From contig JAPOOG010000032.1 of the NCBI GenBank assembly GCA_026713545.1, forward strand, positions 8,379 through 72,378: a DNA stretch of 64,000 nt. Direction: 5' to 3'. This document shows, one piece after another, positions 8,685 to 61,996 of this stretch. The translations under genes and the position numbers were made by a program. The stretch comes from Bryobacterales bacterium. Lineage in GTDB: Bacteria > Acidobacteriota > Terriglobia > Bryobacterales > UBA6623. A model generated the notes under the pieces. That model ran no database searches, was not told the DNA's origin, and was given only the letters and a program-made list of their open reading frames with translations. Position 1 is the first letter of the stretch. Each line of letters begins with the position of its first letter.

Positions 8685-11543
8685 TCAGTACACGTATAAG
8701 AATTCGTTGGAGTTGAACAGCGCCAGAGCCAGATCGGCCCAGGCGCGTATGCCGGGCGGCATCTCGCTCGGGTGCGGATTGTGCTCGTAAGGGCCGGTAT
8801 AAGCGGGCTGAACGAATTCGAAGCGTTCTCCGGTCAGCTCGCTTGTGATGGTGTGGACGATGTCCGTCGGCAATCGTCGGGCAGCAGCGGGGTTCCCCTC
8901 AAGGTGCGCCGTCATCTCCGCAACGAACTCTTCCGTCCAATCGCGCTCCTCGCTCGTGGGATCGCGGCCGAATGCCAGTCGAAATGCGCTCTCGACGCGC
9001 ATCCCCGCGGGCAAGGAATCCAGGCGCTGCGCCATGATCAGCGCCATGTCGCGCGACAGATCGGCATTGAGCAGGGCGAACGCCTGGGTCGGCACGGTGG
9101 ATGATTCCCGGCGCTCGCAGGTCAGGTCCGGATTTGCGCCGTTGAACACCTCGATCATGGGGTCCATCATGCTGCGCCGCTGGAAACTGTAAACGGAACG
9201 GCGGTTGCGTCTCCGCCGGGTCGGCTCGGCTTCGTAGACCGGCTGGAGGGTTCCCATCGCATGCCTCGGCTGGTGCGCTACTTCCGGATTGATCTGGGCG
9301 TACGTGCCGGGTCCGCCCGCGAAGTCGCTCAACTCGCCGGCAACCGCCATCATGCTGTCGCGAATTTCCTCGGCTTCCAGCCGGCGGGGTGAGAACCGCG
9401 CCAGGTAGATGTTCTCGGGGTCGAGCTTGTCCACCAACTCACGGTTCTGGTGATCGCTGGCTCGCCGGTACGCCTCCGAATACAGGATCACTCGATGGAC
9501 TGCCTTTACGCTCCAGCCCTGGTCAATGAAGAATACCGCCAGCCAATCCAACAGCTCCGGGTGCGAGGGCTTCTTTCCCATCTTTCCGAAGTTGTTCGCG
9601 TTCGAAGCCAGCCCGCGCCCGAAATGGTATTGCCAGACGCGATTGACCAGAACCCGGCTGGTCAGCGGATTGTCTGGATCCGCGATCCAGCGGGCCAGCG
9701 CGCTTCGCCGTCCGCTCAGGCGGTCCGGGATCTGCGGAGCCGGCAGATCGGAATAGCGCGCCACCGCTTCGAGCACACCTGGTGAAACCTCCTGCCCGGG
9801 CGCCTGGATGTCGCCTCCGGCCAGAACATGGGTTTTTGCTCGGGCATAGTCCCCCGGCTGCAAGTAGCTGTTCCGATACCTCAGGGCCTCCCATTCCTGG
9901 ACATAGCCGTTGCTGACCGTCATGGCCAGAGGCTCGAACCGCAACACGGACAGCTTGTGCATGATCACTCGCTTCCGCAGCAGCTTGAGCAGCTCAGCCT
10001 GCTCACTGCTCAGGTAACGCTGCAGCGTAGTGGTCCGGGCGTTGGCGGCGGCTTCGGGTCCCTTTGCCCGCGCGAGTCGCTCGCGGGCCGCTTCGTGGAG
10101 GTCGTGCATCCGGCGTTCCAGCTCTTCCAGGCGGGTCTGGATAGGCTTGCGGCCCTGGTCGAAGCCTTCCGTCGATTCTGACGGCAGGAACGGCAACGGG
10201 CGCCTCGCGAAAGCCGTCTTCGCGAAGACGGCTTGCATGCGGTAATAGTCCTTGGTGGGGATCGGGTCGAACTTGTGGTCGTGGCAGCGGGCGCAAGCCA
10301 GCGTCACCCCCAGGAACGACTGCCCCACGTGGTGCGTCACGTCGTCCAGGAAGAGCTGCCGGGTCACCGCCGCGACGGCCATGCCGGTATGCTCCCAAGG
10401 CCCCATCCTGAGAAAGCCGGTCGCAAGAATCGCCTCGGGATCGTCCGGGAACAACTCGTCGCCGGCGATCTGCTCGAGCACGAAGCGGTCGTATGGCTTG
10501 TCGCTGTTGAATGCGCGGATGACGTAGTCCCGGTAGCGCCAGGCATTGGGCCGCACGAAGTCATTGGAGTAGCCGGCGGTATCGGCGTAGCGCGTCACGT
10601 CGAGCCAATGACGCCCCCAACGCTCGCCATAGCGGGGAGAGTCCAGCAAGCGCTCGACGACTTTCTTGTAGGCCCCTTCGGATTCGTCGTCCAAAAAAGC
10701 CTGCACCTCTCCCGGAGTCGGAGGCAGGCCCGTCAGGTCGAACGTCAAACGCCGGATGAGCGTTCTCCTGTCGGCTCTCGGAGCCGGTTCGAGTCCCTTC
10801 TCTGCCAGACGGGCCAGGACAAAGCTGTCCACCGGAGTCTGCACGGCAGCCGGGTCTATCCTGCATTTCTCCCCACGCGGCGAGGTGAAGTGCGTGAGAG
10901 GGCCGTCAGGACGAGGCGCGAGCCGCTTGGCGCGCGCAGGCGTACTTGACCGTACGTCGAGCACGGCACGCAAGCGCAACGAAGTCATGGCGGTCGTATC
11001 GCGTGCTTCGGCCGTCGGGTGGGGAGAAAGGCAGGATATCCCTTCGGTTGGGGGCTCGACGCGCTTCACCGGCCGGAACGCCCAGATGTCGCCTTCCTCG
11101 AAATTCCACTTCGCCGTCGAGCGCCCATCCGCATAAGGGGCTCCCGCTGTGATCCATGCGCGGAATGCGTCCCGGGTCTCTTGGGGAAGCTGCTTCTCCG
11201 GCCCTCCGGGTGGCATGGCCAGCTCGCCGGCATGATCTATGGCCGACATCAGCAAGCTGTCGCCGGGCGATCCGCTCTCGATGGCCGGGCCTCGCTGACC
11301 GCCCTTCAGTGCGGCGTCCCGAGTGCGCAGGTCAAGATTGGCGAAGACGTTCCCTTCGCCGTGGCAGCCCAAGCATTGCTGCTTCAGCACCGGCTGGATG
11401 GTGTTGCGGAACAGTTCGGCAGGAGAATCCGCGGCGGCGGCTGAAGTCGCTCCAACCAAGCCGGAAAGGAAAATCAGGCCTGACCGCAGGAAACGAAGTC
11501 CTGACCCCGCACGGACCGCTTTCGATCGGTATCGTCGCCGCAT
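8685..11543 (-). CDS. PSCyt1 / DUF1549 (PSCyt2) / DUF1553 (PSD1) multidomain protein, carrying an in-frame repeat-element insertion
   Basis: Heme-like 'CLGCHG' near the N-terminus, then DUF1549-like 'PVDSFVLARLAEKGLEPAPRADRRTLIRRLTFDLTGLPPT', 'CARCHDHKFDP', and a DUF1553-like C-terminal part. Start set at the ATG at 11543 ('MRRRYRSK...'); the ORF is open to 11615. Confidence 0.85.
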   Translation of the reverse strand: MRRRYRSKAVRAGSGLRFLRSGLIFLSGLVGATSAAAADSPAELFRNTIQPVLKQQCLGCHGEGNVFANLDLRTRDAALKGGQRGPAIESGSPGDSLLMSAIDHAGELAMPPGGPEKQLPQETRDAFRAWITAGAPYADGRSTAKWNFEEGDIWAFRPVKRVEPPTEGISCLSPHPTAEARDTTAMTSLRLRAVLDVRSSTPARAKRLAPRPDGPLTHFTSPRGEKCRIDPAAVQTPVDSFVLARLAEKGLEPAPRADRRTLIRRLTFDLTGLPPTPGEVQAFLDDESEGAYKKVVERLLDSPRYGERWGRHWLDVTRYADTAGYSNDFVRPNAWRYRDYVIRAFNSDKPYDRFVLEQIAGDELFPDDPEAILATGFLRMGPWEHTGMAVAAVTRQLFLDDVTHHVGQSFLGVTLACARCHDHKFDPIPTKDYYRMQAVFAKTAFARRPLPFLPSESTEGFDQGRKPIQTRLEELERRMHDLHEAARERLARAKGPEAAANARTTTLQRYLSSEQAELLKLLRKRVIMHKLSVLRFEPLAMTVSNGYVQEWEALRYRNSYLQPGDYARAKTHVLAGGDIQAPGQEVSPGVLEAVARYSDLPAPQIPDRLSGRRSALARWIADPDNPLTSRVLVNRVWQYHFGRGLASNANNFGKMGKKPSHPELLDWLAVFFIDQGWSVKAVHRVILYSEAYRRASDHQNRELVDKLDPENIYLARFSPRRLEAEEIRDSMMAVAGELSDFAGGPGTYAQINPEVAHQPRHAMGTLQPVYEAEPTRRRRNRRSVYSFQRRSMMDPMIEVFNGANPDLTCERRESSTVPTQAFALLNADLSRDMALIMAQRLDSLPAGMRVESAFRLAFGRDPTSEERDWTEEFVAEMTAHLEGNPAAARRLPTDIVHTITSELTGERFEFVQPAYTGPYEHNPHPSEMPPGIRAWADLALALFNSNEFLYVY
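10860..11036. mobile_element. 177-bp TIR element, copy A, inserted in-frame in the PSCyt/DUF1553 gene
   Basis: Termini are CCTGCATTTCTCCCCAC ... GTGGGGAGAAAGGCAGG and the flanks are TAT/aTAT. Homologous to the copy at 55475-55651 and, partially, to 44489-44666, 30366-30450, 58036-58576 and 61880-61996. Confidence 0.8.
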
Positions 11544-11783
11544 GTGATCCCGAAAAGCAGGGTCAGTCGTCCGATAGCCCGTTGGAGTGCCGAACCGCAG
11601 CAGGCGGACGGCCAAGCACCCTGCAATGGTTGCTTCCCTATGGTAGCGCGAGACATCGGCCGGAAGCTCTCGATGCGGTCGGTGTGGCCCCGACTTTCAC
11701 GTACTCGGCAACCGGGCGCTGGACCGATGGGCGCTGATCGACGCTTGTCAAGCTGTCGTTACAGCATCCTTTGAATGACGCCC

Positions 11784-24257: not shown

Positions 24258-25571
24258 ATGCAAGTGAATCGCAGGGAATGGCTGTCGGGCGGTTTGGGCG
24301 CGGTTTCAACGGCGGCGTGGGCAGGCTGCGGCGCCGGTTCGCAGACGCAGGGCGGCGCGCTGGCGCCCGTGGTCTCGGGGGGCGTTGTCGATTGGGAGGC
24401 GGTTCGCGCCCGTTTCCCGCGCGCGGTCAACGAGACCTACTTCAATTGCGCCGCGCAGCATCCCCTGGGAGTCCATACCGTCCGGGGCTTCGAGCGCTAC
24501 ATCGACTTCATGCACAATGGCCCTGGCGAGGGCCGCGAGGACTTTTGGGAAACCGGCTATCGCGAGATGAAGCCGGCGTTCGCGCGCCTGATCAATGCCA
24601 AGCCGGAAGAGATTGCCTTCTGTGCGGGAACCACGGTCGGCGAGAACCTCATCGTCAACGGCATGGACCTGAGCAACGCCAACGTGGTCACCAACGATCT
24701 GCACTACACGGCGTCGCTGGCGAACTATCTCGCGCGGCGCGACAAACATGGGTTGGACGTTCGCATCGTCAAGCACCGCGATTGGGAAATCGACATCGCC
24801 GACATGGAGAAGGCGGTGGACCGCAATACCCGGCTGATCTCGGTTTCGTTCGTGTCGTCGGTGAACGGCCACCTCGAGGACCTGAAGAAACTCGGCGACC
24901 TGGCTCATGCTCACGGCGCTTGGCTGTTCGCCGACATCATTCAGGGCTGTGGCGCGACGCCGCTCGACGTGCGCGCAATGGGTGTCGATTTTGCCTCGTG
25001 CGGGATGTACAAGTGGCTCCAGGGCGAACACGGCTTCGGGTTCCTGTACGTCAAGGAAGACCTGCAGGGCACGGCCGTCAAGGGGACACAGTTCACAGGC
25101 AGTCCTGGCCTCAACTACGAGCCCTGGACCGCCTCGCCCGACCCCGCCAAGCCCGAGTTCATCTCGCGTCCTCGGGAGGGCATCGGGCAGTTCGAGTGCA
25201 GCACGCCGGCGGCGATCAACTACGCCGGTCAGCTCGAATCGTTCCGCTTCATCGAAGAGATCGGCGTCGACAAGATTCGGGCGCACGCTCGCGAGGTGAC
25301 CGCCCGGCTGCAGAAGGAACTGCCTCCGCTCGGCTTCACCGCCATCACGCCCGACGGCACCGAATCCGGCATCCGAACCTTCCTGCACCCCGATACCGAT
25401 TCACTCAAGGCCAAGATCAACCGCGCCAACGAAGAGGGCCGCGCCAATATCTCGATCGGCGGCCCCAACTCGGGACTCACCGTGGGACGCGGCGGCAACC
25501 AGGTGCGATTCTCGGTTTCCGTCTACAACAACCACTCGGATGTCGACAAGGTGCTGGAAGTCTTGTCCTGA
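24258..25571 (+). CDS. Aminotransferase class-V-fold PLP-dependent enzyme, Tat signal + lipobox (paralog 1 of 4)
   Basis: 'MQVNRREWLSGGLGAVSTAAWAGCG'. PLP-lysine-type motif 'CGMYKWLQGEHGFGF'. Collinear similarity to the three following genes. Confidence 0.85.
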   Translation: MQVNRREWLSGGLGAVSTAAWAGCGAGSQTQGGALAPVVSGGVVDWEAVRARFPRAVNETYFNCAAQHPLGVHTVRGFERYIDFMHNGPGEGREDFWETGYREMKPAFARLINAKPEEIAFCAGTTVGENLIVNGMDLSNANVVTNDLHYTASLANYLARRDKHGLDVRIVKHRDWEIDIADMEKAVDRNTRLISVSFVSSVNGHLEDLKKLGDLAHAHGAWLFADIIQGCGATPLDVRAMGVDFASCGMYKWLQGEHGFGFLYVKEDLQGTAVKGTQFTGSPGLNYEPWTASPDPAKPEFISRPREGIGQFECSTPAAINYAGQLESFRFIEEIGVDKIRAHAREVTARLQKELPPLGFTAITPDGTESGIRTFLHPDTDSLKAKINRANEEGRANISIGGPNSGLTVGRGGNQVRFSVSVYNNHSDVDKVLEVLS

Positions 25572-25938
25572 CGGGGCGGGATGAAACCCCGCTCGGCGCC
25601 GAGAACGGCCCGCGCAGCACCGTGAAAGGCGTTGCGCCCGGCTGACAAGCCGCGGCCAGGGAGCCTATGGCGCCTGTTCGACCAAGGAGCAACGCAGTTC
25701 AGCCGGGATGCATCGCCGCTTGAATGCAGCAGAGCTCGTGCCGCGGGCTGTTGGCTTTCAGGTCTTCGCCAGCAGCCGCTTTGCGAAGCCGCCCTCCTGG
25801 GAGTGCTCGAGTGCCCTCTGGGCGCTTGCCCGCATCCCCAGCCCGAACGGCGGCTCCAACAAGAGCCGCCCCGAGCCCGGCAACCCGTTCTCCACGAAAC
25901 ACGAGACACGAGACACTGTTTTTTTGTTGCCTCTTGGT

Positions 25939-25963
25939 ACTGAAGCCCTTCAGTCTTTTTTTC
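25939..25963 (+). terminator. Terminator-like hairpin + T-run carried on a repeat module
   Basis: ACTGAAG-CCC-CTTCAGT followed by CTTTTTTT. The same module occurs inverted at 54541-54566. Confidence 0.45.
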
Positions 25964-26150
25964 CCGCCCCGGTCGGCATAGCATGAGCACAGAGAGGCTA
26001 ACGAACGACCTGCCGTCGGCGCGGCGCTCGCCTCTGGCGGCTGCCCCCCACGACGGCAACACGGCTTTCCCCGCCGTGGATGCGCAAGGGTCGCGCCACC
26101 GGAAACTGCCGTCCGGGCCACTGCGCCAGCCGGCAAGTCACCGTTCTTCA

Positions 26151-26206
26151 GTTCACGATTGTTCACCATTGTTCGCCATTGTTCGCCATTGTTCGCCATT
26201 GTTCAC
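26151..26206. repeat. 10-bp tandem repeat, about 5.6 units (GTTCRCSATT)
   Basis: GTTCACGATT GTTCACCATT GTTCGCCATT GTTCGCCATT GTTCGCCATT GTTCAC, read directly from the sequence. Confidence 0.9.
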
Positions 26207-26445
26207 TAAAAAAATATTGCCCCTGCGCCACTGTCGTTGCCCCGTCCGCCGTTCTCGGTCGGCCTTACGACGAGCCTCGCCACCGGGCAGCTCCCGCTGC
26301 GGCGAACACAAAATGAAGCCATGCCGAGAAAAGGGAACATTCCAGCCTGCATTGACTGGAGTCGTGGACACTTTGCACCGGGAGGCTTAGAGTAGAGGTA
26401 CGCTGGAGGGCCGTCTGTTGCGGCCTTTCCGGGAAAGGGGAGTTC

Positions 26446-27687
26446 ATGCCTATCAATCGACGCCAGTTCCTCGGTGCGGCGGGCGCCGCCGCGGCCGCGG
26501 CCCACGCGGCGTGCGAAAGCCAGGGGGGCGCTTCCCCCACGCTTTCCGATATCGCTTCGATCCGAGAGCGGTACCCGCGCGTGCTGCGGCAGGCGTACCT
26601 CGACACGGCGGCGCACTGCCCGCTGAGCACACATACCCGCGAGGGGATGCAAAAGTACATGGACTTCCACATGTACGGCGGCGGGGAAGGTCGCGGCGAG
26701 TATGCCGGTGAGGCGATGCGTGCCGTCAAGCCGCAGTTCGCGCGCATGATCGGCGCGAAGCCTTCGGAGATCGCCTTCGTCCAGAACACGAAAGCGGGTG
26801 AGGACATTGTGGTGAACGGCCTGGACATCCAGGCCGCGGGCGGCAACGTCGTCACGAACGACCTGCACTACGCCGGCTCGATCCACAGCTTCCTCGGCCG
26901 CAAGAAAGCCGGCATGGATGTTCGGATCATCAAGTCGAAGGATTGGGTCACCGACCTTGACGCCATGGAAGCCGCGATCGACAAGAAGACCAGGCTCGTC
27001 GCGATCACATTGGTCTCGAACGTCAACGGACACGTCGAAGACGCCAAGGCCCTCACCGGGATGGCGCACGCGAACGGCGGGTATGTCTACGCCGACATCA
27101 TTCAGGCAGCGGGCGCCATCCCGATCGACGTCAAGGCGCTCGGTCTCGATTTCGCTGCTTGCTCGAATTACAAGTGGCTCCAGGGTTGCCGCGGCTCAGG
27201 CTTTCTGTACGTCCGCGAAGAACTGCAAGGCACGGCGGTGAAAGACCTGCTCTTCCCCGGCTATGTCCGCTTCAACTACCCGCCGTGGGTGGACCCCGCC
27301 GACGGTAACGAAGATCCGATGCCCTTTTCCCCGCCCAGGAACGCCGGCCGCTATCAGCCGGGCAATACGGCCCGCGAGGGCTACTGCGGCCAGTATGAGT
27401 CGTTCAAGGTGATGGAAGCGATCGGCGTCGAAAACATGCTGGCCCATACGATGGCCCTGGTCGACCGCATCCGCAAGGAGCTTCCGGAGAGCAGGTATCG
27501 GTGCATCACGCCCGAGGGCGCTCGCAGTCCGATCCTCGTTTTCATCCCGGCGGACTACGAGGGAACGCAAGCCAGGCTGAAACAGGCGAACATTCAGGCG
27601 ACCACGACGGGGAACCGTTTGCGAATCTCGCCCAACATCTACAACAACCAGGAAGATGTCGACAAGCTGCTCGACGCCTTGGTCTGA
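26446..27687 (+). CDS. Aminotransferase class-V-fold PLP-dependent enzyme, Tat signal + lipobox (paralog 2 of 4)
   Basis: 'MPINRRQFLGAAGAAAAAAHAACES' and 'CSNYKWLQGCRGSGF'. Confidence 0.85.
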   Translation: MPINRRQFLGAAGAAAAAAHAACESQGGASPTLSDIASIRERYPRVLRQAYLDTAAHCPLSTHTREGMQKYMDFHMYGGGEGRGEYAGEAMRAVKPQFARMIGAKPSEIAFVQNTKAGEDIVVNGLDIQAAGGNVVTNDLHYAGSIHSFLGRKKAGMDVRIIKSKDWVTDLDAMEAAIDKKTRLVAITLVSNVNGHVEDAKALTGMAHANGGYVYADIIQAAGAIPIDVKALGLDFAACSNYKWLQGCRGSGFLYVREELQGTAVKDLLFPGYVRFNYPPWVDPADGNEDPMPFSPPRNAGRYQPGNTAREGYCGQYESFKVMEAIGVENMLAHTMALVDRIRKELPESRYRCITPEGARSPILVFIPADYEGTQARLKQANIQATTTGNRLRISPNIYNNQEDVDKLLDALV

Positions 27688-27775
27688 CCGGAAACATTCT
27701 CTTGATCAAGCGGCATTGACAGCGGTCCGGATGTTTCCTGCTGGTATGATCCGTGTGCGGGCGGAGAAAAAAATA
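27685..27775. repeat. 85-89 bp hairpin element, copy 3 (intergenic, directly upstream of paralog 3)
   Basis: 'TGACCGGAAACATTCTCTTGATCAAGCGGCATTGACAGCGGTCCGGATGTTTCCTGCTGGTATGATCC...GGCGGAGAAAAAA'. It starts at the stop codon of paralog 2 and ends about 12 nt before the AGGAG RBS of paralog 3. Confidence 0.8.
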
Positions 27776-27787
27776 AAAGGAGCGGCC

Positions 27788-29056
27788 ATGAACTTCAATC
27801 GAAGATCGTTTCTTGCGGGAAGCGTCGCGGCGTCCGTGGCGTCGCAGCTCGGGTGCGGTCAGGAAAGTGATGCCGCGCCGGTGCTCGGAGACCTCGACAG
27901 CGCGCGCCGCGACTTCCCGCGGTCCGCGAACGGCGTGTACATGAATCACGCCTCGCAGCACACCCTCAGCGTACAATCGGCTCGGGCAATCCAGCGGTAC
28001 GCCGACTACCTTGCGAACGAATGCTCGCGAGCCGGTTGGTACGAGGTGTCGGACGATGCAAAGGCGCTTGGCGGCGCATACAAGCGCGAAGTCAAGGAGA
28101 TGTTCGCCAGGCTGATCAATGCCCGGCCGTCTGAGATCGCCTTCTGCCTGAGCACGACCGTCGGCGAGAACATGGTCGTGAACGGCATGGGCATTCAGGA
28201 GTCCGGCGGCAATGTCGTAACGAACGATTTGCACTATTCGAGCTGCCTGTACAACTACAAGATGCGCCAGCAGCGTGGTCTTGACGTGCGCATCGTCAAG
28301 CACAGAGACTGGCGGCTCGACCCGGCCGACTTCGAAACCCTCATCGACGACAAGACGAAGCTTGTCGCGCTGACGCTGGTTTCGAACGTCAACGGATTGC
28401 TCGCCCCGGTGAAGGAGATCGCCGGCATCGCGCATCGCAACGGCGCTTATGTCTACGCGGACATCATCCAGGCCTGCGGAGCCGTGCCCATCGACGTACA
28501 AGCCATGGGGATCGACTTTGCCGCCTGCTCGACCTACAAGTGGCTGATGGGACTGCGCGGTTTCGCCTACCTCTACATCAAGGAGGACCTGCAGGGAACC
28601 GTCGTGCAGCCCACGCAGTTCGGAGGAGGCGTGAGCTTCAACTACGAGCCCTGGGTCGAAAATCCCGACTCCGGCAGTGGCGAGATCGTCTACCGGCCGA
28701 AGCAGATGGCTTCCCAGTACGAAGTGGGCAACGTATCGAGTGTCGGATGCGTTTGCCAACAGGAGGCTCTGAACTTCATCCACCGGGTCGGCGTGGATGA
28801 GATTCAGGCGCACGCGACTCCCCTGACCGAGTTCCTGCAAGAGGAGATGCCGAAGATCGGGTATGCTTCGATCACTCCGAGTGGCAATCGAAGCCCGATC
28901 ACGACGTTTCGCGTCCCTGATCCGAAAGAGGCCGAGCGGCGGCTCAAGGAAGCCCATATCGAGGTGACGCTGCGGTTCGGTAATCAGATGCGCGTATCGG
29001 TGTCGGTGATGAACAACCAGCAGGATGTCGAGGCTTTGGTGGCGGCGCTGGCGTAA
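27788..29056 (+). CDS. Aminotransferase class-V-fold PLP-dependent enzyme, Tat signal + lipobox (paralog 3 of 4)
   Basis: 'MNFNRRSFLAGSVAASVASQLGCGQ' and 'CSTYKWLMGLRGFAY'. AAGGAG RBS. Confidence 0.85.
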   Translation: MNFNRRSFLAGSVAASVASQLGCGQESDAAPVLGDLDSARRDFPRSANGVYMNHASQHTLSVQSARAIQRYADYLANECSRAGWYEVSDDAKALGGAYKREVKEMFARLINARPSEIAFCLSTTVGENMVVNGMGIQESGGNVVTNDLHYSSCLYNYKMRQQRGLDVRIVKHRDWRLDPADFETLIDDKTKLVALTLVSNVNGLLAPVKEIAGIAHRNGAYVYADIIQACGAVPIDVQAMGIDFAACSTYKWLMGLRGFAYLYIKEDLQGTVVQPTQFGGGVSFNYEPWVENPDSGSGEIVYRPKQMASQYEVGNVSSVGCVCQQEALNFIHRVGVDEIQAHATPLTEFLQEEMPKIGYASITPSGNRSPITTFRVPDPKEAERRLKEAHIEVTLRFGNQMRVSVSVMNNQQDVEALVAALA

Positions 29057-29092
29057 ATGAAATGCGGCCGACTCGATCGATGGAGAAACCCT

Positions 29093-30352
29093 ATGAACTT
29101 TGATCGACGCGATTTCCTGGCCGGTTCCGCCACGCTCGGCTCCGGCATGTTCTTTGGTTGCAGTGCGGCGGATTCCAAGATCGCCGACACTGCGCTCACG
29201 GCCGAAAATGCCGACTTCGCAACCGCCCGAGCTGCTTTCCCCTGGTCAACGAAGCAGGTCTGGCTGAACAACGCCGGCCGGCATCCCTGTGGTGTTCACT
29301 CCGTCAACGCGGCCCGCGGGTATCTCGACTACATCCTTGATGGTCCGGGAAACGGCGCCGGCTTCGGAGAAAAGCAGTTCCACGATGTGAAGGCGTTGTA
29401 CGGCGAGCTCATCAACGCCAAGGCGTCGGAAATCGCGCTCGTGCAAAGCACGCTGATCGGCGAGAACCTCGTCGCTCTCGGTCTGGGCCTGCACGACGGC
29501 AAGGGCAACGTCGTCACCGACGAGCTGCACTATCACGGCGGAAGCTATATCTATCGCCGCCTGCAGGACGCCGGGCTCGAATTGCGGATCATCAAGCAGA
29601 AAGACTGGCAAGTCACTCCTGAGGAGTACGAGCGGGTGATCGACAACGACACGAAGCTCGTCTCGCTAACCCTGGTTTCGAACATCAACGGGTTTCTCTA
29701 CGACTCCAAGGCCATCAGCGAGATCGCGCATGCCAACGGCGCCTACGTTTATGCCGACGTCGTCCAGGCGGCCGGCTGCGTTCCCGTGGACATGCGGGCC
29801 ATGGGGATCGACTTCTGCTCGGCTTCGACCTACAAGTGGCTGATGGGGATGCGCGGCCTGGGGTTGTTCTACGTGCGGGAAGAGCTTCAGGGCGGCGTGC
29901 TCAAGCCGGTGATGTACGGGGACAAGCAATACTCGAACTTCGAGTTCCACTACTTTCCGGGGAGCCCGCCGGGCGAGACGCCGATCAGCTATCAACCGCG
30001 CGGCGGGGCGCAAATATATGAGGTCGGCAACGTCTCGAACATCGCCGGGGCGGCGCAGCGCGAGGCGCTCAAGTACATCCTCAAGCTCGGTGTCGACAAC
30101 ATCCTCGCCCATGCCAAGCCCATGTGCGACAAGCTGATCGAGGAGTTGCCGAAACTTGGTTACCCTTGCATCACGCCGCCGGGCAGCCCCACGCCCATCA
30201 CGGCTTTTCTCGTCGAGAACCCCGAAGAAACCAGCGCCAGATTGAGAGCCGCCAAAGTCGCTGCCAAGGTCAAGTGGAAACAGATGCGTGTCTCGCCCTC
30301 CGTCTTCAACACGATGGCCGACGTGGACCAATTGCTGGATGCGTTATCCTGA
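29093..30352 (+). CDS. Aminotransferase class-V-fold PLP-dependent enzyme, Tat signal + lipobox (paralog 4 of 4)
   Basis: 'MNFDRRDFLAGSATLGSGMFFGCSA' and 'ASTYKWLMGMRGLGL'. Confidence 0.85.
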   Translation: MNFDRRDFLAGSATLGSGMFFGCSAADSKIADTALTAENADFATARAAFPWSTKQVWLNNAGRHPCGVHSVNAARGYLDYILDGPGNGAGFGEKQFHDVKALYGELINAKASEIALVQSTLIGENLVALGLGLHDGKGNVVTDELHYHGGSYIYRRLQDAGLELRIIKQKDWQVTPEEYERVIDNDTKLVSLTLVSNINGFLYDSKAISEIAHANGAYVYADVVQAAGCVPVDMRAMGIDFCSASTYKWLMGMRGLGLFYVREELQGGVLKPVMYGDKQYSNFEFHYFPGSPPGETPISYQPRGGAQIYEVGNVSNIAGAAQREALKYILKLGVDNILAHAKPMCDKLIEELPKLGYPCITPPGSPTPITAFLVENPEETSARLRAAKVAAKVKWKQMRVSPSVFNTMADVDQLLDALS

Positions 30353-30365
30353 CCGGTCGTATGAG

Positions 30366-30683
30366 CCTGTATTTCTCATCACGTGGCGAGACGAAGTGCG
30401 TGAGAGGGCCGTCAGGACGAGGCGCGAGCCGCTTGGCGCGCGCAGGCGTAGCGGCCATATTGCCTCCTTTGGCCTTCGGGTCACGAAACATGAGACACGG
30501 CCTTTACGGTTCACCGCCCGTCAGACATTTCTTTCGAGAACGAACCAGGCCCCCCGCCAGGGTTTTTCAAGAATCACGGCCTTGTACGCAAGCCGCCTTG
30601 GAGCGACAGCCGTACCGCCCGCCTGGGTTTTGGGGTCACGAATCACGCGACACGAGACACGAAACACGGCCTTTTAATGCAGG
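30366..30683. repeat. Long-form composite element B (one arm of the 177-bp element + S-core module + heptamer words)
   Basis: Starts CCTGTATTTCTCATCACGTGGCGAG...GCCGCTTGGCGCGCGCAGG (arm shared with copies A and D). Continues with the S-core 'CCGTCAGACATTTCT' at 30496-30568, then 'CACGAATCACGCGACACGAGACACGAAACACGG', and ends ...TTAATGCAGG. Fills almost the whole 361-bp intergenic gap. Confidence 0.75.
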
Positions 30684-30713
30684 TCAGGTTGTAGATACAT
30701 CCCGGGAGTCGTT

Positions 30714-43598: not shown

Positions 43599-44495
43599 CT
43601 ACGTTTTGCGGATGTCTCTGTGAGAGACCTTCACTTCGCATCCAGCGCCCGTGAGGTTGCGGCCGACCGCATCCGCGATCATCACCGAGCGATGCCGGCC
43701 CCCCGTGCAACCGAATGCAATCGTCAGGTAGCTCTTGCCCTCACGCACGTAATGGGGGACGAGATACAGCAGCAGGTCGGAAATCCGGCCGATGAACTCC
43801 CCGGTCTGCGGAAACGACCGTACGTACCGAATGACCTTCGGATGCTTGCCGGAAAGATTCTTGCAACCCGGCACATAGTGCGGGTTCGGCAGGAACCGAA
43901 CATCGAAAACCAAGTCGCTGTCGCTTGGCAAGCCGTGTTTGAAACCGAAGCTGTTCACCGTGACGAGCAGTTGCGGTCTGTCTTGAGCGCTCTGGAATCG
44001 CGTTACGATCAGACGCCTCAGATCGTGAATGTTGAACTGCGACGTATCGAGAATCAGATCCGCAAGCTTTTGAATGGATCGTAGCGCCTGCCTCTCCGCC
44101 CGGATGCTGTTGAGGACGGACGTACCCGTGCCCAGCGGGTGTGGTCGACGTGTCTCACTGAAGCGCCTTTGTAGAACGTCGTCCGCGGCTTCAAGAAACA
44201 GCAGAAACACACGATTCTGCCTCCTCAGTTCCTGAAAGATTCCGGGAAACTTCTTGAGGGCCCGGCCTTCACGAATATCGACCACCAGAGCGGCCCGGGA
44301 GATTTCCGGAGAGTGTCTACAGAGCTCGGCGAAGGTCGGGATCAAGTCAATCGGCAGATTGTCGACGGCATAGAAACCCATATCCTCAAAGACCTTCAGC
44401 ACAGAGACTTTGCCCGAGCCGCTAAGTCCGGTCAGGATGACGAGTTCGTATGCCCCGCCCGGCGCTTCCCCCGCGCTGCTTGTCTCAGCCGTCAT
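43599..44495 (-). CDS. rapZ: RNase adapter protein RapZ (P-loop NTPase, YhbJ family)
   Basis: Walker A 'GLSGSGKVSVLKVFEDMGFYAVDNLP' and C-terminal 'IAFGCTGGRHRSV'. Confidence 0.9.
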   Translation of the reverse strand: MTAETSSAGEAPGGAYELVILTGLSGSGKVSVLKVFEDMGFYAVDNLPIDLIPTFAELCRHSPEISRAALVVDIREGRALKKFPGIFQELRRQNRVFLLFLEAADDVLQRRFSETRRPHPLGTGTSVLNSIRAERQALRSIQKLADLILDTSQFNIHDLRRLIVTRFQSAQDRPQLLVTVNSFGFKHGLPSDSDLVFDVRFLPNPHYVPGCKNLSGKHPKVIRYVRSFPQTGEFIGRISDLLLYLVPHYVREGKSYLTIAFGCTGGRHRSVMIADAVGRNLTGAGCEVKVSHRDIRKT

Positions 44496-44666
44496 TTCTC
44501 ACCCACCTGACGGCAGAAGCACGCGATACGACGTTCATGACTTCGTTGCGCACGCTTACTGTGCTCAATGTTAAGGGCAAGTACACCTGCGCGTGCCAAG
44601 CCGCTCGCGCCACGTCCTGACGGCCCTTTCAGGCACCTCACCTCCCCACGTGATGAGAAAGGTCGG
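44489..44666. repeat. Degenerate copy C of the 177-bp TIR element, between hpf and rapZ, overlapping the rapZ start codon
   Basis: 'CCGTCATTTCTCACCCACCTGACGGC...GCCAAGCCGCTCGCGCCACGTCCTGACGGCCCTTTCAGGCACCTCACCTCCCCACGTGATGAGAAAGGTCGG' aligns along its length with copy D. The CAT (ATG of rapZ) at 44493-44495 lies in the left terminus. Confidence 0.7.
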
Positions 44667-53985: not shown

Positions 53986-54924
53986 GCCTCCAGTTTATCG
54001 TCGAAGCTGCTGAATTCCGTCTCCTCAGACATGGATGTCAACTCCCAGCATGGTTCATTCACCGCGAATGGACACGAACCAACACGAATGAGGGGCGTTT
54101 TCGCCGCGGAGGCGGGAGCTGTGCGCCAATTCGCGTCCACAGTAGCGGGTCCAGCCCGGAGGTCGACGGGAGCGGCGGTGAACGGCGCTCGTCGTGAGGC
54201 CGACCGCGAGCGGCGGACGGCGCGCCGGCACTGGCACAGATGCAATATTTTTTGCCGGGAAATAGTGGGCAATACCGGGAAATAGTGGGCAGGCAAGCAG
54301 TGGCTGGGCTGCGGGCGTGGCAGCCTGACCTGCATCTCTACCCGCCCGGCGTCCGAAGCACGCGAGGTAAAGGCCGTGATTCGTGTTTCGTGATTCGTGA
54401 AAAGCATAAAAGCCGTGATTCGTGTCTCGTGAAAAACCTTAAAAGCAGTGGCTAGTGAAAGCCTTGAAAGCTCTGATTCGTGACCCGCACCGACTGTGCC
54501 TCGTTGCCTCCCTGTCCTCATGCTATGCAGGCCGGGGAAGAAAAAAAAGACTGAAGGGCTTCAGTACCTAGAGGTATTAAAAAAACCGTGATTCGTGTTT
54601 CGTGATTCGTGAAAAACACTGGTGAGGCCTCGTTCGCTCCAGAAGAAATGTCTGACGGCCGTTGAACCGTAAAGGCCGTGTTGCCGTCGTGGGGGGCAGC
54701 CTCTACAGCGAGCGCCTCGCCGTTCACGGTGCTACGCGGGCCGTTCTCGGCGCCAAGCAGGATTTCACCACGGACTGCCAGCTCACCGGGGAACTTCCTA
54801 CATTGCGCCGACACTCCGCAGACATGAAGCTCGTTACCTCACCGCAGACTTCCAGCCGCGCCTGACGAAAATACCAAGCAGCTTTCACCTCGCCTGCCCT
54901 CTCGCAGCACCTATCTGCTAACTT
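53986..54924. repeat. Mosaic intergenic repeat zone 4 (inverted relative to zone 1; includes a 20-bp x2 repeat, heptamer words, the hairpin module and an S-core)
   Basis: Components are 54170-54250 (reverse complement of roughly 26200-26290), 54255-54294 (CCGGGAAATAGTGGGCA x2), 54371-54480 (GTGATTC/GTGTTTC words), 54518-54625 (reverse complement of roughly 25891-25985), the S-core at 54611-54680, and 54700-54790 (reverse complement of roughly 25585-25640). Confidence 0.8.
54541..54566 (-). terminator. Terminator-like hairpin + T-run (minus strand) on a repeat module
   Basis: The plus strand reads AAAAAAAAGACTGAAGGGCTTCAGTAC, which on the minus strand is a hairpin followed by T8. Confidence 0.4.
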
Positions 54925-55461: not shown

Positions 55462-57930
55462 ATGAAGCCCTTAGCCTGCATGTCTCACCACCCGACGGCC
55501 GCAGCACGCGATAAGACCGCCATGACTTCGTTGCGCTTGCTTGCCGTGCTCGACGTACTGTCAAGTACACTTGCGCGCGCCAAGCGGCTCGCGCCTCGTC
55601 CTGACGGCCCTCTCACGCACTTCACCTCGCCGCGTGGTGAGACATGCAGGCTAGCCGGGTTCGTATTGCATTTGCTGTTTTGCACCGTTGCCGCGGCAAG
55701 CGTGACCGTTGTCGTGGAAGATCCCGGCGGTGACCGCATCGCGGGCGCGCGAGTCGCCCTGCAAACTTCTGTGGGGCGTGAGATCGAAACGCGCCGTACG
55801 TCCGACGCCGGTGAAGCCTCCTTCGAGGGAAATCAAGCCGGCCGCATCGTCGAGGTCGCCGCCGACGGTTTCGAGCCCCAGCTCGTTCTCGTCCCCGACG
55901 ACGAAACGCTCGTTGTCCGCCTGGCGATCGCGACGGTGGCCACCACGATCGAAGTCGAAGCCGAAGCGGAGCCCACCGTCGCCGTCCAGGAAACCGACGC
56001 CTCCGAGCTGGCAGCGATCCCCTCGACCGATCTCATCGAAAATCTGCGCGCCACCCCGGGAGTGAGCGTGCTGCGCCGAGGCGCCACCAACATCGAACCG
56101 GTCGTCGAAGGCCTGCGCGAAACCCAGCTCGCCATGGTCGTCGACGGCACCCGCACCTTCGCCGCCGGCCCTGCCCGCATGGACTCCGAGCTGAGTCACG
56201 TCGAGCCGGGCCACATCAGCAGCGTCGAAGTCGTCACCGGTCCCTACGCCCTGACCAAGGCCGCCGGCGCATTCGGCGCCATTCTGGTGACTTCGCCACA
56301 GGTTCCCCGCTTTGACCGCTGGCAGTTCGGAGGCGGAACCGGCAGCGGCTATCGCAGCAACGGCTCCGGCCGCTACGGACGAGCTCGCCTGTTCGCGGGA
56401 GACAACCGCTTCGGATTCAGCTTGCGCGCCGCGGGCAACCAGGGCAATGACTACCGGGCCGGCGACCGTGGACCGATCAAGGACATCACCATCCCCGGCG
56501 ACTTCAGCAATCACCAGTTCGGCGGCAAGCTGCGCTTCAACCCGGCCAGCAAGCAGGAGATCGCGCTTGGCGGTTTCTACGACGAGCAGACCGGAGTCGA
56601 CTACCCCGGCCGGCTGCTCACCGCCGAGCACTTCATTCTGCGATCGTTCTCCGGCAACTACTACGCCGCCAACCCGGCAGACGGCATCACCGCCATCAAG
56701 GGCAACCTCTACCTCAACAAGAAAAGCCACCGCATGAGCAACCGCGAAAAGCCAACAGCGCTCCCGATGATGGGCCGAAAACCTCCCTTCGCACTCGACG
56801 TAGCACTCCCCACGGAAGCCGATACGCTGGGCGGCTCCGGCAGTGTCGAGTTCGCCCTCACGGAGACGTGGCGGCTGCAGACGGGCTTCGACTTCTACCA
56901 CCTCAGCCAAGACGCGCAACGCTTCGTCGCCCGTCAAGACGACGGCCGGCTGCTCTTCAGCGATGCCGTATGGCCCGACGCCACCATCAACGACCAGGGC
57001 GTTTACGTGCAGACCGTGGGCGCGTTCGAGCGCGGCGAGGTTGCCGCCGGCGCGCGCGCCGATTTCGTGCAGGCCGACGCCGGACGCCCTTCGGACTTCT
57101 TTCTCGCCAACGCCGGCCACGGGATCGACCGTAACGAAACGAATTTCAACGCCAGCCTCGCGGGCCGCTACCGCCTCATCGACGGCGTCTCTCTCTCCGC
57201 CGGAGTGGGCAACGTGCGGCGCACGGCGAACGCGCTGGAGCGCTTCTCCGACCGCTTTCCGAGCACCCGTTTCCAGATCGCAGCCGAGTTCATGGGCCTA
57301 CCGACGATCCAGCCGGAATCCAGCACGCAAGGCAACCTGAACGTCGACGTTACGGTCCGCGACTTCCGGTTCAGCGCCGGCGGTTTCCTCCGCCGCATCA
57401 ACGACTACATCACGGTCCGCCCCGACCCCGACCTGCCGAAACGCCTGCCGCTCAGCCCTGCCGTCGTCTTCCGGTACATCAACGGCGACCACGCGACGTT
57501 CCGCGGCTACCAGTTGGGCGCGGAATACCGCGGTTCGCGCTGGTTCCAGTTCCGCAGCCGGGCCGCCAAGGTCATCGCCGATGACCGCGAGCTCAACGAG
57601 CCCGTCCTCGGCATCGCGCCCTTCGAGCTCTACTCCAGCGTACGCATCCTCGAACCGTCAGGGCGATTCTGGAGCGAGTATTCCGTCCGCAATGTCTGGG
57701 ACCAGCAGCGGGTTTCGATCAGACGCCTCGAAACCCCGTCACCCGGCTTCAGCACGCACGACCTGCGTATTGGAGTGGAAGTACATAAAAAGATCAAGCT
57801 GCACTTCGGACTCGAGAACCTGGGCGACAAGCACTATTTCGAGCACCTGAACTCGCCCAACCCATTCACTCGCCAACGGATCCCCGAGCCCGGCCGCACG
57901 GTTTACCTCAGCCTGACCACCGACTGGTGA
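55462..57930 (+). CDS. TonB-dependent receptor (CarbopepD_reg-like domain + plug + barrel) with the 177-bp element inserted in-frame in its signal-peptide region
   Basis: GGGGAGG RBS then ATG at 55462. 'VTVVVEDPGGDRIAGARVAL', plug 'VSVLRRGATNIEPVVEGLRETQLAMVVDG', and a C-terminal '...VYLSLTTDW'. Confidence 0.85.
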   Translation: MKPLACMSHHPTAAARDKTAMTSLRLLAVLDVLSSTLARAKRLAPRPDGPLTHFTSPRGETCRLAGFVLHLLFCTVAAASVTVVVEDPGGDRIAGARVALQTSVGREIETRRTSDAGEASFEGNQAGRIVEVAADGFEPQLVLVPDDETLVVRLAIATVATTIEVEAEAEPTVAVQETDASELAAIPSTDLIENLRATPGVSVLRRGATNIEPVVEGLRETQLAMVVDGTRTFAAGPARMDSELSHVEPGHISSVEVVTGPYALTKAAGAFGAILVTSPQVPRFDRWQFGGGTGSGYRSNGSGRYGRARLFAGDNRFGFSLRAAGNQGNDYRAGDRGPIKDITIPGDFSNHQFGGKLRFNPASKQEIALGGFYDEQTGVDYPGRLLTAEHFILRSFSGNYYAANPADGITAIKGNLYLNKKSHRMSNREKPTALPMMGRKPPFALDVALPTEADTLGGSGSVEFALTETWRLQTGFDFYHLSQDAQRFVARQDDGRLLFSDAVWPDATINDQGVYVQTVGAFERGEVAAGARADFVQADAGRPSDFFLANAGHGIDRNETNFNASLAGRYRLIDGVSLSAGVGNVRRTANALERFSDRFPSTRFQIAAEFMGLPTIQPESSTQGNLNVDVTVRDFRFSAGGFLRRINDYITVRPDPDLPKRLPLSPAVVFRYINGDHATFRGYQLGAEYRGSRWFQFRSRAAKVIADDRELNEPVLGIAPFELYSSVRILEPSGRFWSEYSVRNVWDQQRVSIRRLETPSPGFSTHDLRIGVEVHKKIKLHFGLENLGDKHYFEHLNSPNPFTRQRIPEPGRTVYLSLTTDW
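55475..55651. mobile_element. 177-bp TIR element, copy D (in-frame in the TonB receptor 5' end)
   Basis: CCTGCATGTCTCACCAC ... GTGGTGAGACATGCAGG, with flanks TTAG / cTAG. Removing 180 bp gives 'MKPLAGFVLHLLFCTVAAASV', a normal signal peptide. Confidence 0.8.
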
Positions 57931-58035: not shown

Positions 58036-58576
58036 CCTGCATTTCTCACCACCGACGGCCGAAGCACACGAGGAAAAGGCCGTGGTTAGTGGTTAGTGGT
58101 TAGTTATTAGTGAAAAACCTTTGGCGGGGGCTTGGTCCGCTCCAGAAGAAATGTCTGACGGCCAGCGAACCGTAAGGCCATGATTCGTGCTTCATGACCC
58201 GAGGGCCGAAAGAGGCGAGATGGCCGCTAGCAGCCCGTGGTGAAAGTCACGCGGGCGGCGTTACGCGCCTTGGGGTCGATTGCGCAACGTGTGGCTGCTC
58301 CAGTAACGCAGCACCGCGCTCTCCGAGCAACCGAGCGGAAGGGGCGCGTGACCCGTTGGGCGACGGACATTTGCAGTCGTCGGCTTTGTCGTTCGTCGGA
58401 GGAGATCACCCGGACCGCCATGCTCCTCACTCCGCGCCGAGCAACCGCAGGAGCCCGCCGCGCCTTCCACGGGACTTCCACCACGGACTGCTAGGCCTGC
58501 GCGCGCCCAGCGGCTCGCTCCTCGCCCTGACGGCCCTCTCACACACTTCACCTCGCCGCGTGGTGAGAAATGCAGG
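58036..58576. repeat. 541-bp composite element E bounded by both TIRs of the 177-bp family and flanked by ATCAT direct repeats
   Basis: Left end CCTGCATTTCTCACCAC (58036). Right end GTGGTGAGAAATGCAGG (ends 58576). ATCAT lies immediately outside both ends. The interior carries GTGGTTA heptamers (58081-58112), an S-core (58112-58182) and extra modules. Confidence 0.75.
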
Positions 58577-60418: not shown

Positions 60419-60834
60419 TGCGGAGAAGTGTATCACGCGGGGGGTCGCAGACAGCGAATAAAGGCCGTGATTCGTGATTCGTGTCTCGTGAAAAACATTG
60501 GTGGGGGCCTGGTTCGCTCCAGAAGAAATGTCTGACGGCAGATGAACCGGAAAGGCCGTGTGTCGTGTCAAAAACCCGTGTTTCGTTTCTCTTGTCTCGT
60601 GTTTCGTGAAGCGAAAGGCGGAAAGGACGTGATGCGTGATGCGAAAAACCTTTGGGTGACGGACGTTTTTGTTCCGAGACCACGAATGGACACGAATCAA
60701 CACGAAGGGAGGGGTGTTTTATTGCGCCGGCGGTGATGCGGGCAAGCGCCCAGAGGGCACCCGCGCGCTACCAGGGCTCCACGCCTTCCACGGGATTTTT
60801 TACCACCACCACGGGCTGTTATGTCTTTGGGATA
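60419..60834. repeat. Mosaic intergenic repeat zone 6 (heptamer words, S-core, 'CACGAATGGACACGAA' module, 'ATGCGGGCAAGCGCCCAGAGGGCAC' module)
   Basis: S-core at 60490-60560. Word tracts at 60466-60490 and 60556-60660. The 60681-60790 stretch shares modules with 54060-54100 and, inverted, with 25790-25850. Confidence 0.75.
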
Positions 60835-61734: not shown

Positions 61735-61749
61735 GGGCAGGGCTCCTAA

Positions 61750-61996
61750 CCTGCATTAAAGGCCGTGTTTCGTGACTCGTGACTCGTGTCTCGTGTCTCG
61801 TGAAAACCGTTGGCGGGGGTCTAGTTCGCTCTCGAAAGAAATGTCTGACGGTCGGTGAACCGTAAAGGGCGTGTTTCGTGAACCGAGGGGTGAAGGAGGC
61901 GATATGGCCACTACATCTGCGCGCGCCCAGCGGGGCTCACCTCGCCCCGACGGCCCTCTCACGAACTTCGCCTCGCCACGCGGCGAGAAATACAGG
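61750..61996. repeat. Long-form composite element F (heptamer words + S-core + one arm of the 177-bp element)
   Basis: Starts CCTGCATTAAAGGCCGTG. Words GTGTTTC/GTGACTC/GTGTCTC at 61764-61802. S-core at 61802-61873. Arm '...GCGCGCGCCCAGCGGGGCTCACCTCGCCCCGACGGCCCTCTCACGAACTTCGCCTCGCCACGCGGCGAGAAATACAGG'. Begins 15 nt upstream of the ATG at 61734. Confidence 0.75.

What the first reader, a model, noticed from the sequence alone, without database searches (positions are those of the whole stretch)
10856..11039. 177-bp inverted-repeat element sits in-frame inside the PSCyt/DUF1549/DUF1553 gene and adds about 60 codons
The 2.9-kb ORF stays open straight through a 177-bp element with 17-bp terminal inverted repeats (CCTGCATTTCTCCCCAC / GTGGGGAGAAAGGCAGG) and a duplicated TAT at the junctions.

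Deleting element plus duplication (180 bp, exactly 60 codons) rejoins '...RPVKRVEPPTEG|IDPAAVQTPVDSFVLARLAEKGL...'. That reads as a normal DUF1549 N-terminal boundary. The inserted peptide is 'SCLSPHPTAEARDTTAMTSLRLRAVLDVRSSTPARAKRLAPRPDGPLTHFTSPRGEKCR'.

In-frame, non-disruptive MITE-like insertion in proteins is known for Rickettsia palindromic elements. I am not aware of it being described for this kind of organism or element.
Basis: partly seen in the sequence, partly recalled or inferred. Interest (0 to 1): 0.8.

Follow-up and report, generated by a model that had tools for sequence, protein, structure and literature searches.

The report
In-frame MITE insertion inside a gene
A 176-bp non-autonomous transposon landed inside a gene for an exported cytochrome-domain protein of a sponge-associated acidobacterium, and with its 4-bp target duplication it adds exactly 60 codons without breaking the reading frame; this is a clean new example of something already known in other bacteria.

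Summary
Window 10860-11035 is a 176-bp MITE with 17-bp terminal inverted repeats. It is flanked by a 4-bp target duplication (CTAT/ATAT; the empty site reads ATAG). It sits in the minus-strand PSCyt1/DUF1549/DUF1553 gene, and 176+4 = 180 bp adds exactly 60 codons.

All more distant orthologs also lack the block.

The family is high-copy in Bryobacterales MAGs: 330 matches in about 0.9 Mb of fetched DNA. Its targets are YTAR, mostly CTAG. It shares its inverted repeat (15/17) and its CTAG duplication with a 1,724-bp IS1380-family element found in the same genomes.

Only this copy, out of 183 full copies tested, reads through a well-supported coding region. It is the minority 176-bp variant; the 177-bp majority would shift the frame.

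The host gene stays under purifying selection (dN/dS 0.13-0.21). The insert lies between two folded domains and is predicted to be disordered.

A second, independent in-frame copy sits after codon 3 of the same gene in other strains. The two insertions occur in all four presence/absence combinations.

In-frame MITE fusions are already described in several bacteria, so this is a new member of a known kind.

The parts
10860..11035 (.). 176-bp MITE copy (the minority length variant), read through by the minus-strand gene
   Evidence: It is a full-length match to the family profile (192 bits) and is 93% identical to the copy at 55475-55650.
10856..10859 (.). Target-site duplication, low-coordinate copy (CTAT on +; ATAG in gene orientation, which equals the empty-site sequence)
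   Evidence: empty site GGGATAGAC in L116. The family-wide 4-bp YTAR duplication is shown.
11036..11039 (.). Target-site duplication, high-coordinate copy (ATAT on both strands). It matches the other copy at 3 of 4 positions.
10860..10876 (+). Terminal inverted repeat CCTGCATTTCTCCCCAC
11019..11035 (-). Terminal inverted repeat; its reverse complement is CCTGCCTTTCTCCCCAC
8685..11543 (-). Host gene, 952 aa from ATG (MRRRY...). The product is identical to MCY4584978.1. The ORF is open upstream as far as a TTG at 11615.
11208..11375 (-). PSCyt1 (planctomycete cytochrome c) domain, residues 81-136 of the 976-aa ORF
   Evidence: E = 1.8e-11. AlphaFold pLDDT is about 90.
10215..10835 (-). PSCyt2 / DUF1549 domain, residues 261-467. 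It begins 8 residues after the insert.
   Evidence: E = 2.4e-88.
8925..9710 (-). PSD1 / DUF1553 domain, residues 636-897
   Evidence: E = 4.8e-83.
55475..55650 (.). Second full 176-bp copy of the family, in the opposite orientation, flanked by TTAG/CTAG. Its flanks did not score as a read-through coding region.
44489..44666 (.). Third full copy, 178 bp and more diverged
30366..30450 (.). Half copy. It breaks at the element centre (...GCGCGCAGGCGTA|) and is joined to other repeat modules.
58036..58576 (.). Family inverted repeats 541 bp apart. The two half elements are separated by other repeat modules.
61904..61995 (.). Half copy joined to other repeat modules

Best explanation
The element is a non-autonomous transposon (MITE). 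It is most likely mobilised in trans by an IS1380-family transposase present in the same genomes. It inserted at an ATAG in the codons for the linker between the cytochrome c domain (PSCyt1) and the DUF1549 domain of an exported protein.

This copy is the 176-bp length variant. With the 4-bp duplication it adds 180 bp. In the orientation and frame in which it landed it contains no stop codon. The gene therefore reads through and gains a 60-residue segment that is predicted to be disordered and lies between two independently folded domains.

The insert behaves as a tolerated passenger, not as a new functional module. It shows no codon-position bias in its substitutions, and one allele carries an in-frame deletion inside it. 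The rest of the gene remains under purifying selection.

The insertion is polymorphic in a recombining population of sponge-associated Bryobacterales.

Shown: the identity of the element, the empty and filled sites, frame preservation, purifying selection on the host gene, and the rarity of coding-sequence insertions in this family. Inferred: trans-mobilisation by the IS1380 element, translation of the insert, and retained protein function.
For: Element identity:
- Inverted repeats, 4-bp YTAR duplications (73 of 164 perfect; CTAG is the commonest) and 330 profile matches in about 0.9 Mb.
- The same chromosomes carry a 1,724-bp element that encodes an IS1380-family transposase (NF033539, 388 bits; PF13701, 491 bits). 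Its inverted repeat CCCGCATTTCTCACCAG matches the MITE's at 15 of 17 positions, and it has perfect CTAG duplications in the four copies whose ends were read.

Insertion rather than ancestral sequence:
- The empty site is seen at DNA level in L116 and L002.
- The 60-aa block is missing in 29 of the 30 best orthologs.
- The filled allele is present in at least 7 independent assemblies, including complete chromosomes.

Frame and tolerance:
- 176+4 = 180 bp. The 177-bp majority variant shifts the frame and meets stop codons.
- dN/dS is 0.21 upstream and 0.13 downstream of the insert, and 0.13-0.16 across all pairs of insert-bearing alleles.
- Indels inside the two in-gene copies are 54 bp and 24 bp, both multiples of three.

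Location and passenger behaviour:
- The AlphaFold model gives pLDDT of about 30 and no secondary structure for residues 169-227, which is exactly the insert. The cytochrome domain scores about 90 and the start of DUF1549 scores 75-81.
- The 13 variable sites in the insert fall 3:6:4 over codon positions, against 63:37:193 in the host gene.
Against: - No expression or protein data exist, so translation through the insert and retained function are inferred only from sequence conservation.
- The insert is 2-5 times less diverged between alleles (2-4.5%) than host third positions (7-12%) or dS (0.10-0.19). A simple neutral passenger of the same age as the alleles would not show this. It needs either a younger insertion that spread by recombination or some constraint at the nucleotide level.
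- The target duplication is imperfect (3 of 4), and ATAG is an unusual target for the family.
- Mobilisation by the IS1380 element rests on the similarity of the inverted repeats and the shared duplication. There is no similarity beyond the repeats.
Confidence: 0.8

Rival explanations
1. Exaptation. The MITE-derived segment has been recruited as a useful part of the protein or of its mRNA and is kept by selection. For example, it could form a surface loop closed by the two cysteines that the inverted repeats encode at its ends.
For: - The insert is 2-5 times less diverged between alleles than host third positions or synonymous sites.
- It persists across lineages about 94% identical in DNA.
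- A second copy in the same orientation and frame sits at the N-terminus of the same protein in other strains.
- Both cysteines are kept in all site-A alleles.
Against: - Substitutions in the insert show no third-position excess (3:6:4).
- In the window versus L001 comparison all 5 changes are non-synonymous.
- One allele has lost 18 of the 60 residues.
- Empty-site alleles are equally well conserved and nest among the filled ones.
- The segment is predicted to be disordered.
- The site-B copy shows the same low divergence, so a younger age combined with recombination explains both cases.
Confidence: 0.12
2. The gene is a pseudogene, or is on its way to becoming one, and the open frame through the element is a coincidence.
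For: - A 3n length together with a stop-free frame has a chance probability of the order of 0.1, based on the open-frame fractions.
- One contig carries the gene split into two calls, P0139 and P0133.
Against: - dN/dS is 0.13-0.21 on both sides of the insert since the alleles diverged.
- The frame is intact in at least 7 filled alleles.
- Both indels inside the in-gene copies are multiples of three.
Confidence: 0.04
3. The 60 residues are ancestral protein sequence that most lineages lost, or they are an assembly artefact.
For: None beyond the open reading frame.
Against: - The block is homologous at the nucleotide level to hundreds of mostly intergenic copies with inverted repeats and duplications.
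- It is exactly bounded by a duplicated ATA(G/T).
- It is absent in all more distant orthologs.
- It is present in independent long-read chromosomes.
Confidence: 0.01
4. The element is removed after transcription or translation, as an intron or an intein would be, so the mature protein lacks it.
For: The insert starts with Ser-Cys and folds into a long hairpin as RNA (-78.5 kcal/mol, z = -3.8).
Against: - No Rfam family matches, including group I and II introns.
- 60 residues is, to my knowledge, shorter than known mini-inteins.
- There is no His-Asn at its C-terminal end.
- The hairpin is explained by the inverted repeats.
Confidence: 0.01

Closest known systems
Bacterial MITEs that form in-frame fusions with host genes (intragenic ERIC, large BOX elements, Coxiella QMITE1/2, Anabaena MITEb/MITEe; reviewed in PMC10969869)
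   Same: - A short non-autonomous element with terminal inverted repeats and target duplications.
- High copy number and mostly intergenic locations.
- An occasional copy lies inside an ORF with the frame preserved, adding residues to the host protein.
   Different: - This is a different family, host phylum (Acidobacteriota, Bryobacterales) and parent element (IS1380 family).
- The insertion is polymorphic in a population, with the empty site directly observable.
- A second in-frame copy lies in the same gene.
Rickettsia palindromic elements (RPE; Ogata et al. 2000 and 2002, as cited in PMC10969869)
   Same: A roughly 100-180-bp palindrome-ended repeat is read through as part of a protein without destroying it. 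The added peptide lies outside the folded core.
   Different: - Nearly half of the Rickettsia elements lie in ORFs. Here 1 of 183 copies does.
- This family has clear transposon hallmarks: a 4-bp duplication and a cognate IS.
- There is no sequence similarity; no comparison with RPE sequences was run, because none were available in the tools.
IS1380-family insertion sequences (NCBIfam NF033539; Pfam PF13701)
   Same: - The MITE's inverted repeat matches that of a 1,724-bp IS1380-family element in the same genomes at 15 of 17 positions.
- Both begin with CC.
- Both make 4-bp duplications at CTAG-type targets.
   Different: - The MITE has no transposase gene.
- It shares nothing with the IS beyond the repeats.
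- Its interior is a distinct, modular sequence that is often recombined with other repeat families.
IS5 (target CTAG, 4-bp duplication; PMC10379815)
   Same: The same duplication length and the same preferred tetranucleotide.
   Different: - No IS5-type transposase was found next to matching ends.
- The matching ends belong to an IS1380-family element.
- The resemblance therefore concerns the target only.

Membership tests
MITE (miniature inverted-repeat transposable element) | Terminal inverted repeats | tested here: met
   The repeats are 17 bp and match at 16 of 17 positions in this copy. The family consensus is CCTGCATTTCTCACCAC at both ends.
MITE (miniature inverted-repeat transposable element) | Target-site duplication of fixed length | tested here: met
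   The duplication is 4 bp. It is perfect in 73 of 164 copies and follows the pattern YTAR. In this copy it matches at 3 of 4 positions, and the empty site was seen in L116.
MITE (miniature inverted-repeat transposable element) | Small size with no transposase gene | tested here: met
   The modal lengths are 176 and 177 bp. Proteins matching the encoded peptide are only 41-117 aa ORFs without domains.
MITE (miniature inverted-repeat transposable element) | Many dispersed copies in one genome | tested here: met
   There are 134 matches in 272 kb of OZ242366.1, 108 in 224 kb of OZ241991.1, and 8 profile matches at six sites in this 64-kb window.
MITE (miniature inverted-repeat transposable element) | An autonomous element with matching ends in the same host | tested here: met
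   A 1,724-bp IS1380-family element has ends that match at 15 of 17 positions and CTAG duplications. Three identical copies lie on the chromosome that also carries a filled allele. Actual mobilisation cannot be tested with these tools.
Rickettsia-palindromic-element-like protein-coding repeats | A large fraction of copies inserted in-frame in unrelated genes | tested here: not met
   Only 1 independent copy of 183 reads through coding flanks. At most a few more lie in weakly coding-like sequence.
Rickettsia-palindromic-element-like protein-coding repeats | An encoded peptide conserved as protein | tested here: not met
   - Substitutions show no codon-position bias (3:6:4).
- An 18-residue deletion allele exists.
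- The majority 177-bp variant is frameshifted in that reading frame.
Intein | N-terminal Cys/Ser, C-terminal His-Asn followed by a Cys/Ser/Thr extein residue, and a splicing domain | tested here: not met
   The insert ends in ...GEKCR followed by Ile and is only 60 residues long. The expected motifs are recalled from general knowledge.
Self-splicing intron or other described structured RNA | Match to a curated RNA family | tested here: not met
   There were no Rfam matches at gathering score in the window. Only two chance-level hairpin matches fell below threshold.

The most novel reading that the evidence does not exclude
The MITE-derived segment is not just tolerated but selected. The same element family has been recruited twice, in the same orientation and reading frame, into one exported protein. 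The copies are kept in frame through later indels. They evolve several times more slowly than neighbouring synonymous sites. Because the palindromic TGCA in the inverted repeat is read in the same frame at both ends, each end of the insert encodes a cysteine, and the two cysteines could pinch the loop off by a disulfide bond in the periplasm. That would be RPE-style protein innovation by selfish DNA in a free-living or sponge-symbiotic acidobacterium.
Probability: 0.12. Interest if true: 0.65.

Novelty: new member of a known kind. Interest (0 to 1): 0.4.

Why it matters
This is an unusually well-documented natural case of a transposon fragment becoming part of a protein.
- The empty site, the filled site, a later in-frame deletion and a second independent in-frame insertion in the same gene are all visible in closely related uncultured strains.
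- The likely parent element has been identified.

The case shows which conditions let such an insertion survive: a 3n length variant, a stop-free frame and an inter-domain linker. It also shows how rare that outcome is for this family.

It also flags a high-copy repeat family that causes spurious small-ORF calls and N-terminal extensions in Bryobacterales MAG annotations.

Tried and rejected
1. Ancestral segment or assembly artefact. Rejected by the ortholog alignment, the empty-site DNA and the multiple independent assemblies.

2. IS5 as the parent. This was my first guess, based on the YTAR/CTAG 4-bp duplication. I dropped it when matching ends were found on an IS1380-family element.

3. The 1,618-bp units bounded by family inverted repeats as the autonomous form. 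Rejected: they are MITE copies with an IS110-family element nested at a fixed central position.

4. In-frame coding as a general, RPE-like property of the family. Rejected by a codon-usage and ORF test on 183 copies.

5. A profile search with the encoded peptide for other long host proteins. It returned only short ORFs, but the known positives were also missing from the list, so the result is uninformative.

6. Ectopic gene conversion from other copies as the reason for low insert divergence. This is unlikely, because all site-A alleles share derived differences from the family consensus.

7. A rate comparison with orthologous intergenic copies. Only one other orthologous pair was in the sample and its interior had been replaced, so there was no usable control.

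8. Known RNA families, promoter and terminator. Nothing was found.
Full report
**What is at the coordinates.**
- Window 10860-11035 is a 176-bp element. It starts with CCTGCATTTCTCCCCAC and ends with GTGGGGAGAAAGGCAGG, and these two ends are inverted repeats that match at 16 of 17 positions.
- It is flanked by CTAT (10856-10859) and ATAT (11036-11039).
- It lies inside the minus-strand ORF 8685-11615. The product of that ORF from the ATG at 11543 is identical to the 952-aa protein MCY4584978.1 from a Bryobacterales MAG.
- Pfam places PSCyt1 at residues 81-136, PSCyt2/DUF1549 at 261-467 and PSD1/DUF1553 at 636-897 of the 976-aa ORF. The insert (residues 193-252) therefore lies in the linker and ends 8 residues before DUF1549.
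- The inverted-repeat motif occurs 6 times in the window against 0.01 expected from shuffles.
- The window holds two more full copies (55475-55650, 93% identical; 44489-44666) and three half or split copies.

**It is an insertion, not ancestral sequence.**
- Among the 30 best orthologs, the 60 residues are present only in the 95%-identical protein. The other 29 have a clean 60-column gap, including one at 89% identity.
- Within the two 90%-identity clusters, alleles of 952 aa carry the block.
- At the DNA level the empty allele reads GAAGGGATAGACC. The filled alleles read GAAGGGATAT[176 bp]ATAGACC. The net gain is therefore 180 bp, with a 4-bp duplication that now matches at 3 of 4 positions.
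- Filled alleles occur in at least seven independent assemblies, including complete chromosomes. An assembly artefact is therefore excluded.

**What the element is.**
The true matches were almost all in Bryobacterales MAGs, some named after sponge samples. Streptomyces and a few other hits did not match the profile.
- A profile built from the three full window copies found 330 matches, 189 of them full length, in about 0.93 Mb.
- Lengths are 177 bp (105 copies) and 176 bp (39 copies), with rarer longer variants.
- In the 164 copies with canonical ends, the flanks are 4-bp duplications of the form YTAR. CTAG is the commonest and 73 duplications are perfect.
- Because the target is near-palindromic, the duplication looks like an extension of the inverted repeat.
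- There was no match to any Rfam family, and no promoter-like or terminator-like site.
- As RNA the element folds into a hairpin closed by its ends (-78.5 kcal/mol, z = -3.8), as expected for inverted repeats.

**Likely parent element.**
- Relaxed searches for inverted-repeat pairs found a 1,724-bp unit on L003 (356-2079) bounded by CTAG. Its ends are CCCGCATTTCTCACCAG and CCCGGATATCTCACCAG, and it has a 487-aa ORF.
- The ORF is an IS1380-family transposase (NCBIfam NF033539, 388 bits against a cut-off of 180; Pfam PF13701, 491 bits).
- Proteins 88-93% identical to it are encoded on the same chromosomes that carry the MITE and the filled alleles.
- Three identical copies on CBDEVC010000004.1 are each 1,724 bp with perfect CTAG duplications.
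- One end matches the MITE repeat at 15 of 17 positions. There is no similarity beyond the repeats.
- The MITE is thus best placed with the IS1380 family. Mobilisation in trans is an inference.

**How special the in-frame position is.**
- I trained a codon log-odds score on long ORFs of these loci. It separates the true frame of the host gene (+0.14 to +0.34 per codon) from shifted frames (-0.28 to -0.72).
- Of 183 full copies with enough flank, only the window copy and its ortholog in L001 are open through the element with coding-like flanks in the same frame.
- Restoring the empty site revealed at most a few further, weak candidates.
- The family therefore almost never survives in coding sequence.
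- The surviving copy is the 176-bp variant. In the 177-bp consensus an extra central base shifts the frame into stop codons.

**Is the gene still working?**
- Between the window and L001, dN/dS is 0.21 upstream and 0.13 downstream of the insert.
- Over all pairs of insert-bearing alleles it is 0.13-0.16.
- One allele pair (P0129 and P0131; L118) has a 54-bp deletion inside the insert, which is in-frame.
- An AlphaFold model of residues 25-480 with a 91-sequence alignment gives pLDDT of about 30 and no secondary structure for model residues 169-227, which is exactly the insert. The cytochrome domain scores about 90 and the start of DUF1549 scores 75-81.
- The simplest reading is a disordered extension of an inter-domain linker that the protein tolerates. 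Translation and function are inferred, not shown.

**A second in-frame copy and a recombining population.**
- In L002, L117 and L118 another copy of the family sits right after codon 3 (ATG CGG SGA | CTAR...). It is flanked by CTAA or CTAG/CTAA.
- It has the same orientation and reading frame as the first copy and is open from the ATG into the signal peptide.
- It adds 180 bp in two alleles and 204 bp in one; the extra 24 bp is again a multiple of three.
- The two insertions occur in all four presence/absence combinations. Trees from different gene segments disagree, and an empty allele nests among filled ones. This indicates recombination.

**An observation not fully explained.**
- The site-A insert differs by only 2-4.5% between alleles, while host third positions differ by 7-12% and dS is 0.10-0.19.
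- The 13 variable sites of the insert are spread 3:6:4 over codon positions, against 63:37:193 in the host. The pattern is therefore neutral but the amount is low.
- The site-B copy shows the same low divergence (3.3-4.4%).
- I favour insertions that are younger than the average allelic divergence and that spread by recombination. Constraint at the nucleotide level cannot be excluded.
- The only other orthologous pair of copies in the sample had a replaced interior, so it gave no control.

**Comparison with what is known.**
- A 2024 review states that in-frame fusions of intragenic MITEs with host ORFs are 'not unusual'. It lists BOX, ERIC, QMITE1 and Anabaena MITEs, with Rickettsia palindromic elements as the extreme case (PMC10969869). 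Coxiella QMITE2 gives further in-frame examples (PMC5896051).
- I found no paper describing MITEs in Acidobacteriota or in sponge symbionts of that phylum.
- The finding is therefore a new family and a new host, with unusually complete population evidence, but the phenomenon itself is established.

**Verdict.** It is a new member of a known kind, of moderate interest.

Noticed in passing
L002 9942-10149; L117 and L118 at the homologous site (window equivalent: between 11534 and 11535, after codon 3 of the gene): A second, independent copy of the same MITE family sits immediately after ATG-CGG-SGA of the orthologous gene in other strains. It has the same orientation and frame and is open from the ATG into the signal peptide. 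It adds 180 or 204 bp. Gene callers start these proteins inside the MITE (P0002, P0129, P0132).
   Followed up: partly
L102 2511-4128 and 4847-6464; L078 64-1681; L088 and L049 (junction ...GGCGTACTTA|TGGGATGG...); L055 6554-7978: IS110-family RNA-guided transposase genes (NF033542) are nested inside MITE copies. At least five copies share the same central junction, which suggests an IS110 element that targets the MITE sequence itself.
   Followed up: partly
window 30450-30700, 54300-54800, 58060-58480, 60460-60780, 61740-61900: Other short repeat families are present: runs of CGTGAWTCGTG-like units and a module GGCCTGGTTCGCTCCAGAAGAAATGTCTGACGG. They are joined to half MITE copies to form composite, modular repeats. 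The interior of an orthologous MITE copy differs between two genomes in the same way.
   Followed up: no
L003 (JAPOWV010000036.1, 2,335 bp): This contig is binned as Gammaproteobacteria but carries a near-consensus Bryobacterales MITE and the IS1380-family element. It is probably mis-binned; otherwise the elements are shared across hosts.
   Followed up: no
L121 1432-1443 and 3168-3179; L123 and L003 junctions: The IS1380-family element itself is often inserted at CTAG sites inside or at the edge of MITE copies (flanks ...GTCAGGACTAG| and ...AATGCAGGCTAG|). The repeats therefore nest within one another.
   Followed up: no
window 10860-10865 and 11030-11035 (codons TGC at both ends of the insert): The palindromic TGCA of the inverted repeat is read in the same frame at both ends, so the insert begins S-C and ends K-C-R. 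Both cysteines are kept in all site-A alleles seen. Whether they pair is unknown.
   Followed up: no
window 10836-10859 and 11036-11060 (linker codons flanking the insert): The few codons on either side of the insertion are much more variable between alleles (TEG/SEK/TEE; DPAAV/DPSGV/NPSVV) than the insert itself.
   Followed up: partly
P0139 and P0133, both on one 12,117-bp contig: In one assembly the gene is called as two ORFs, and the second call starts inside the insert (MEKCRIDPSG...). This is either a frameshifted allele or a sequencing error; the DNA was not fetched.
   Followed up: no
window 24560-30360: Four tandem paralogous segments are spaced 2161, 1366 and 1296 bp apart (repeat families D1, D2, D6, D8 and D11). 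This looks like a tandem gene family, and a half MITE lies directly after the last copy.
   Followed up: no
P0144-P0263: More than 300 database 'hypothetical proteins' of 41-117 aa from Bryobacterales MAGs are translations of this MITE. They are likely annotation artefacts.
   Followed up: no
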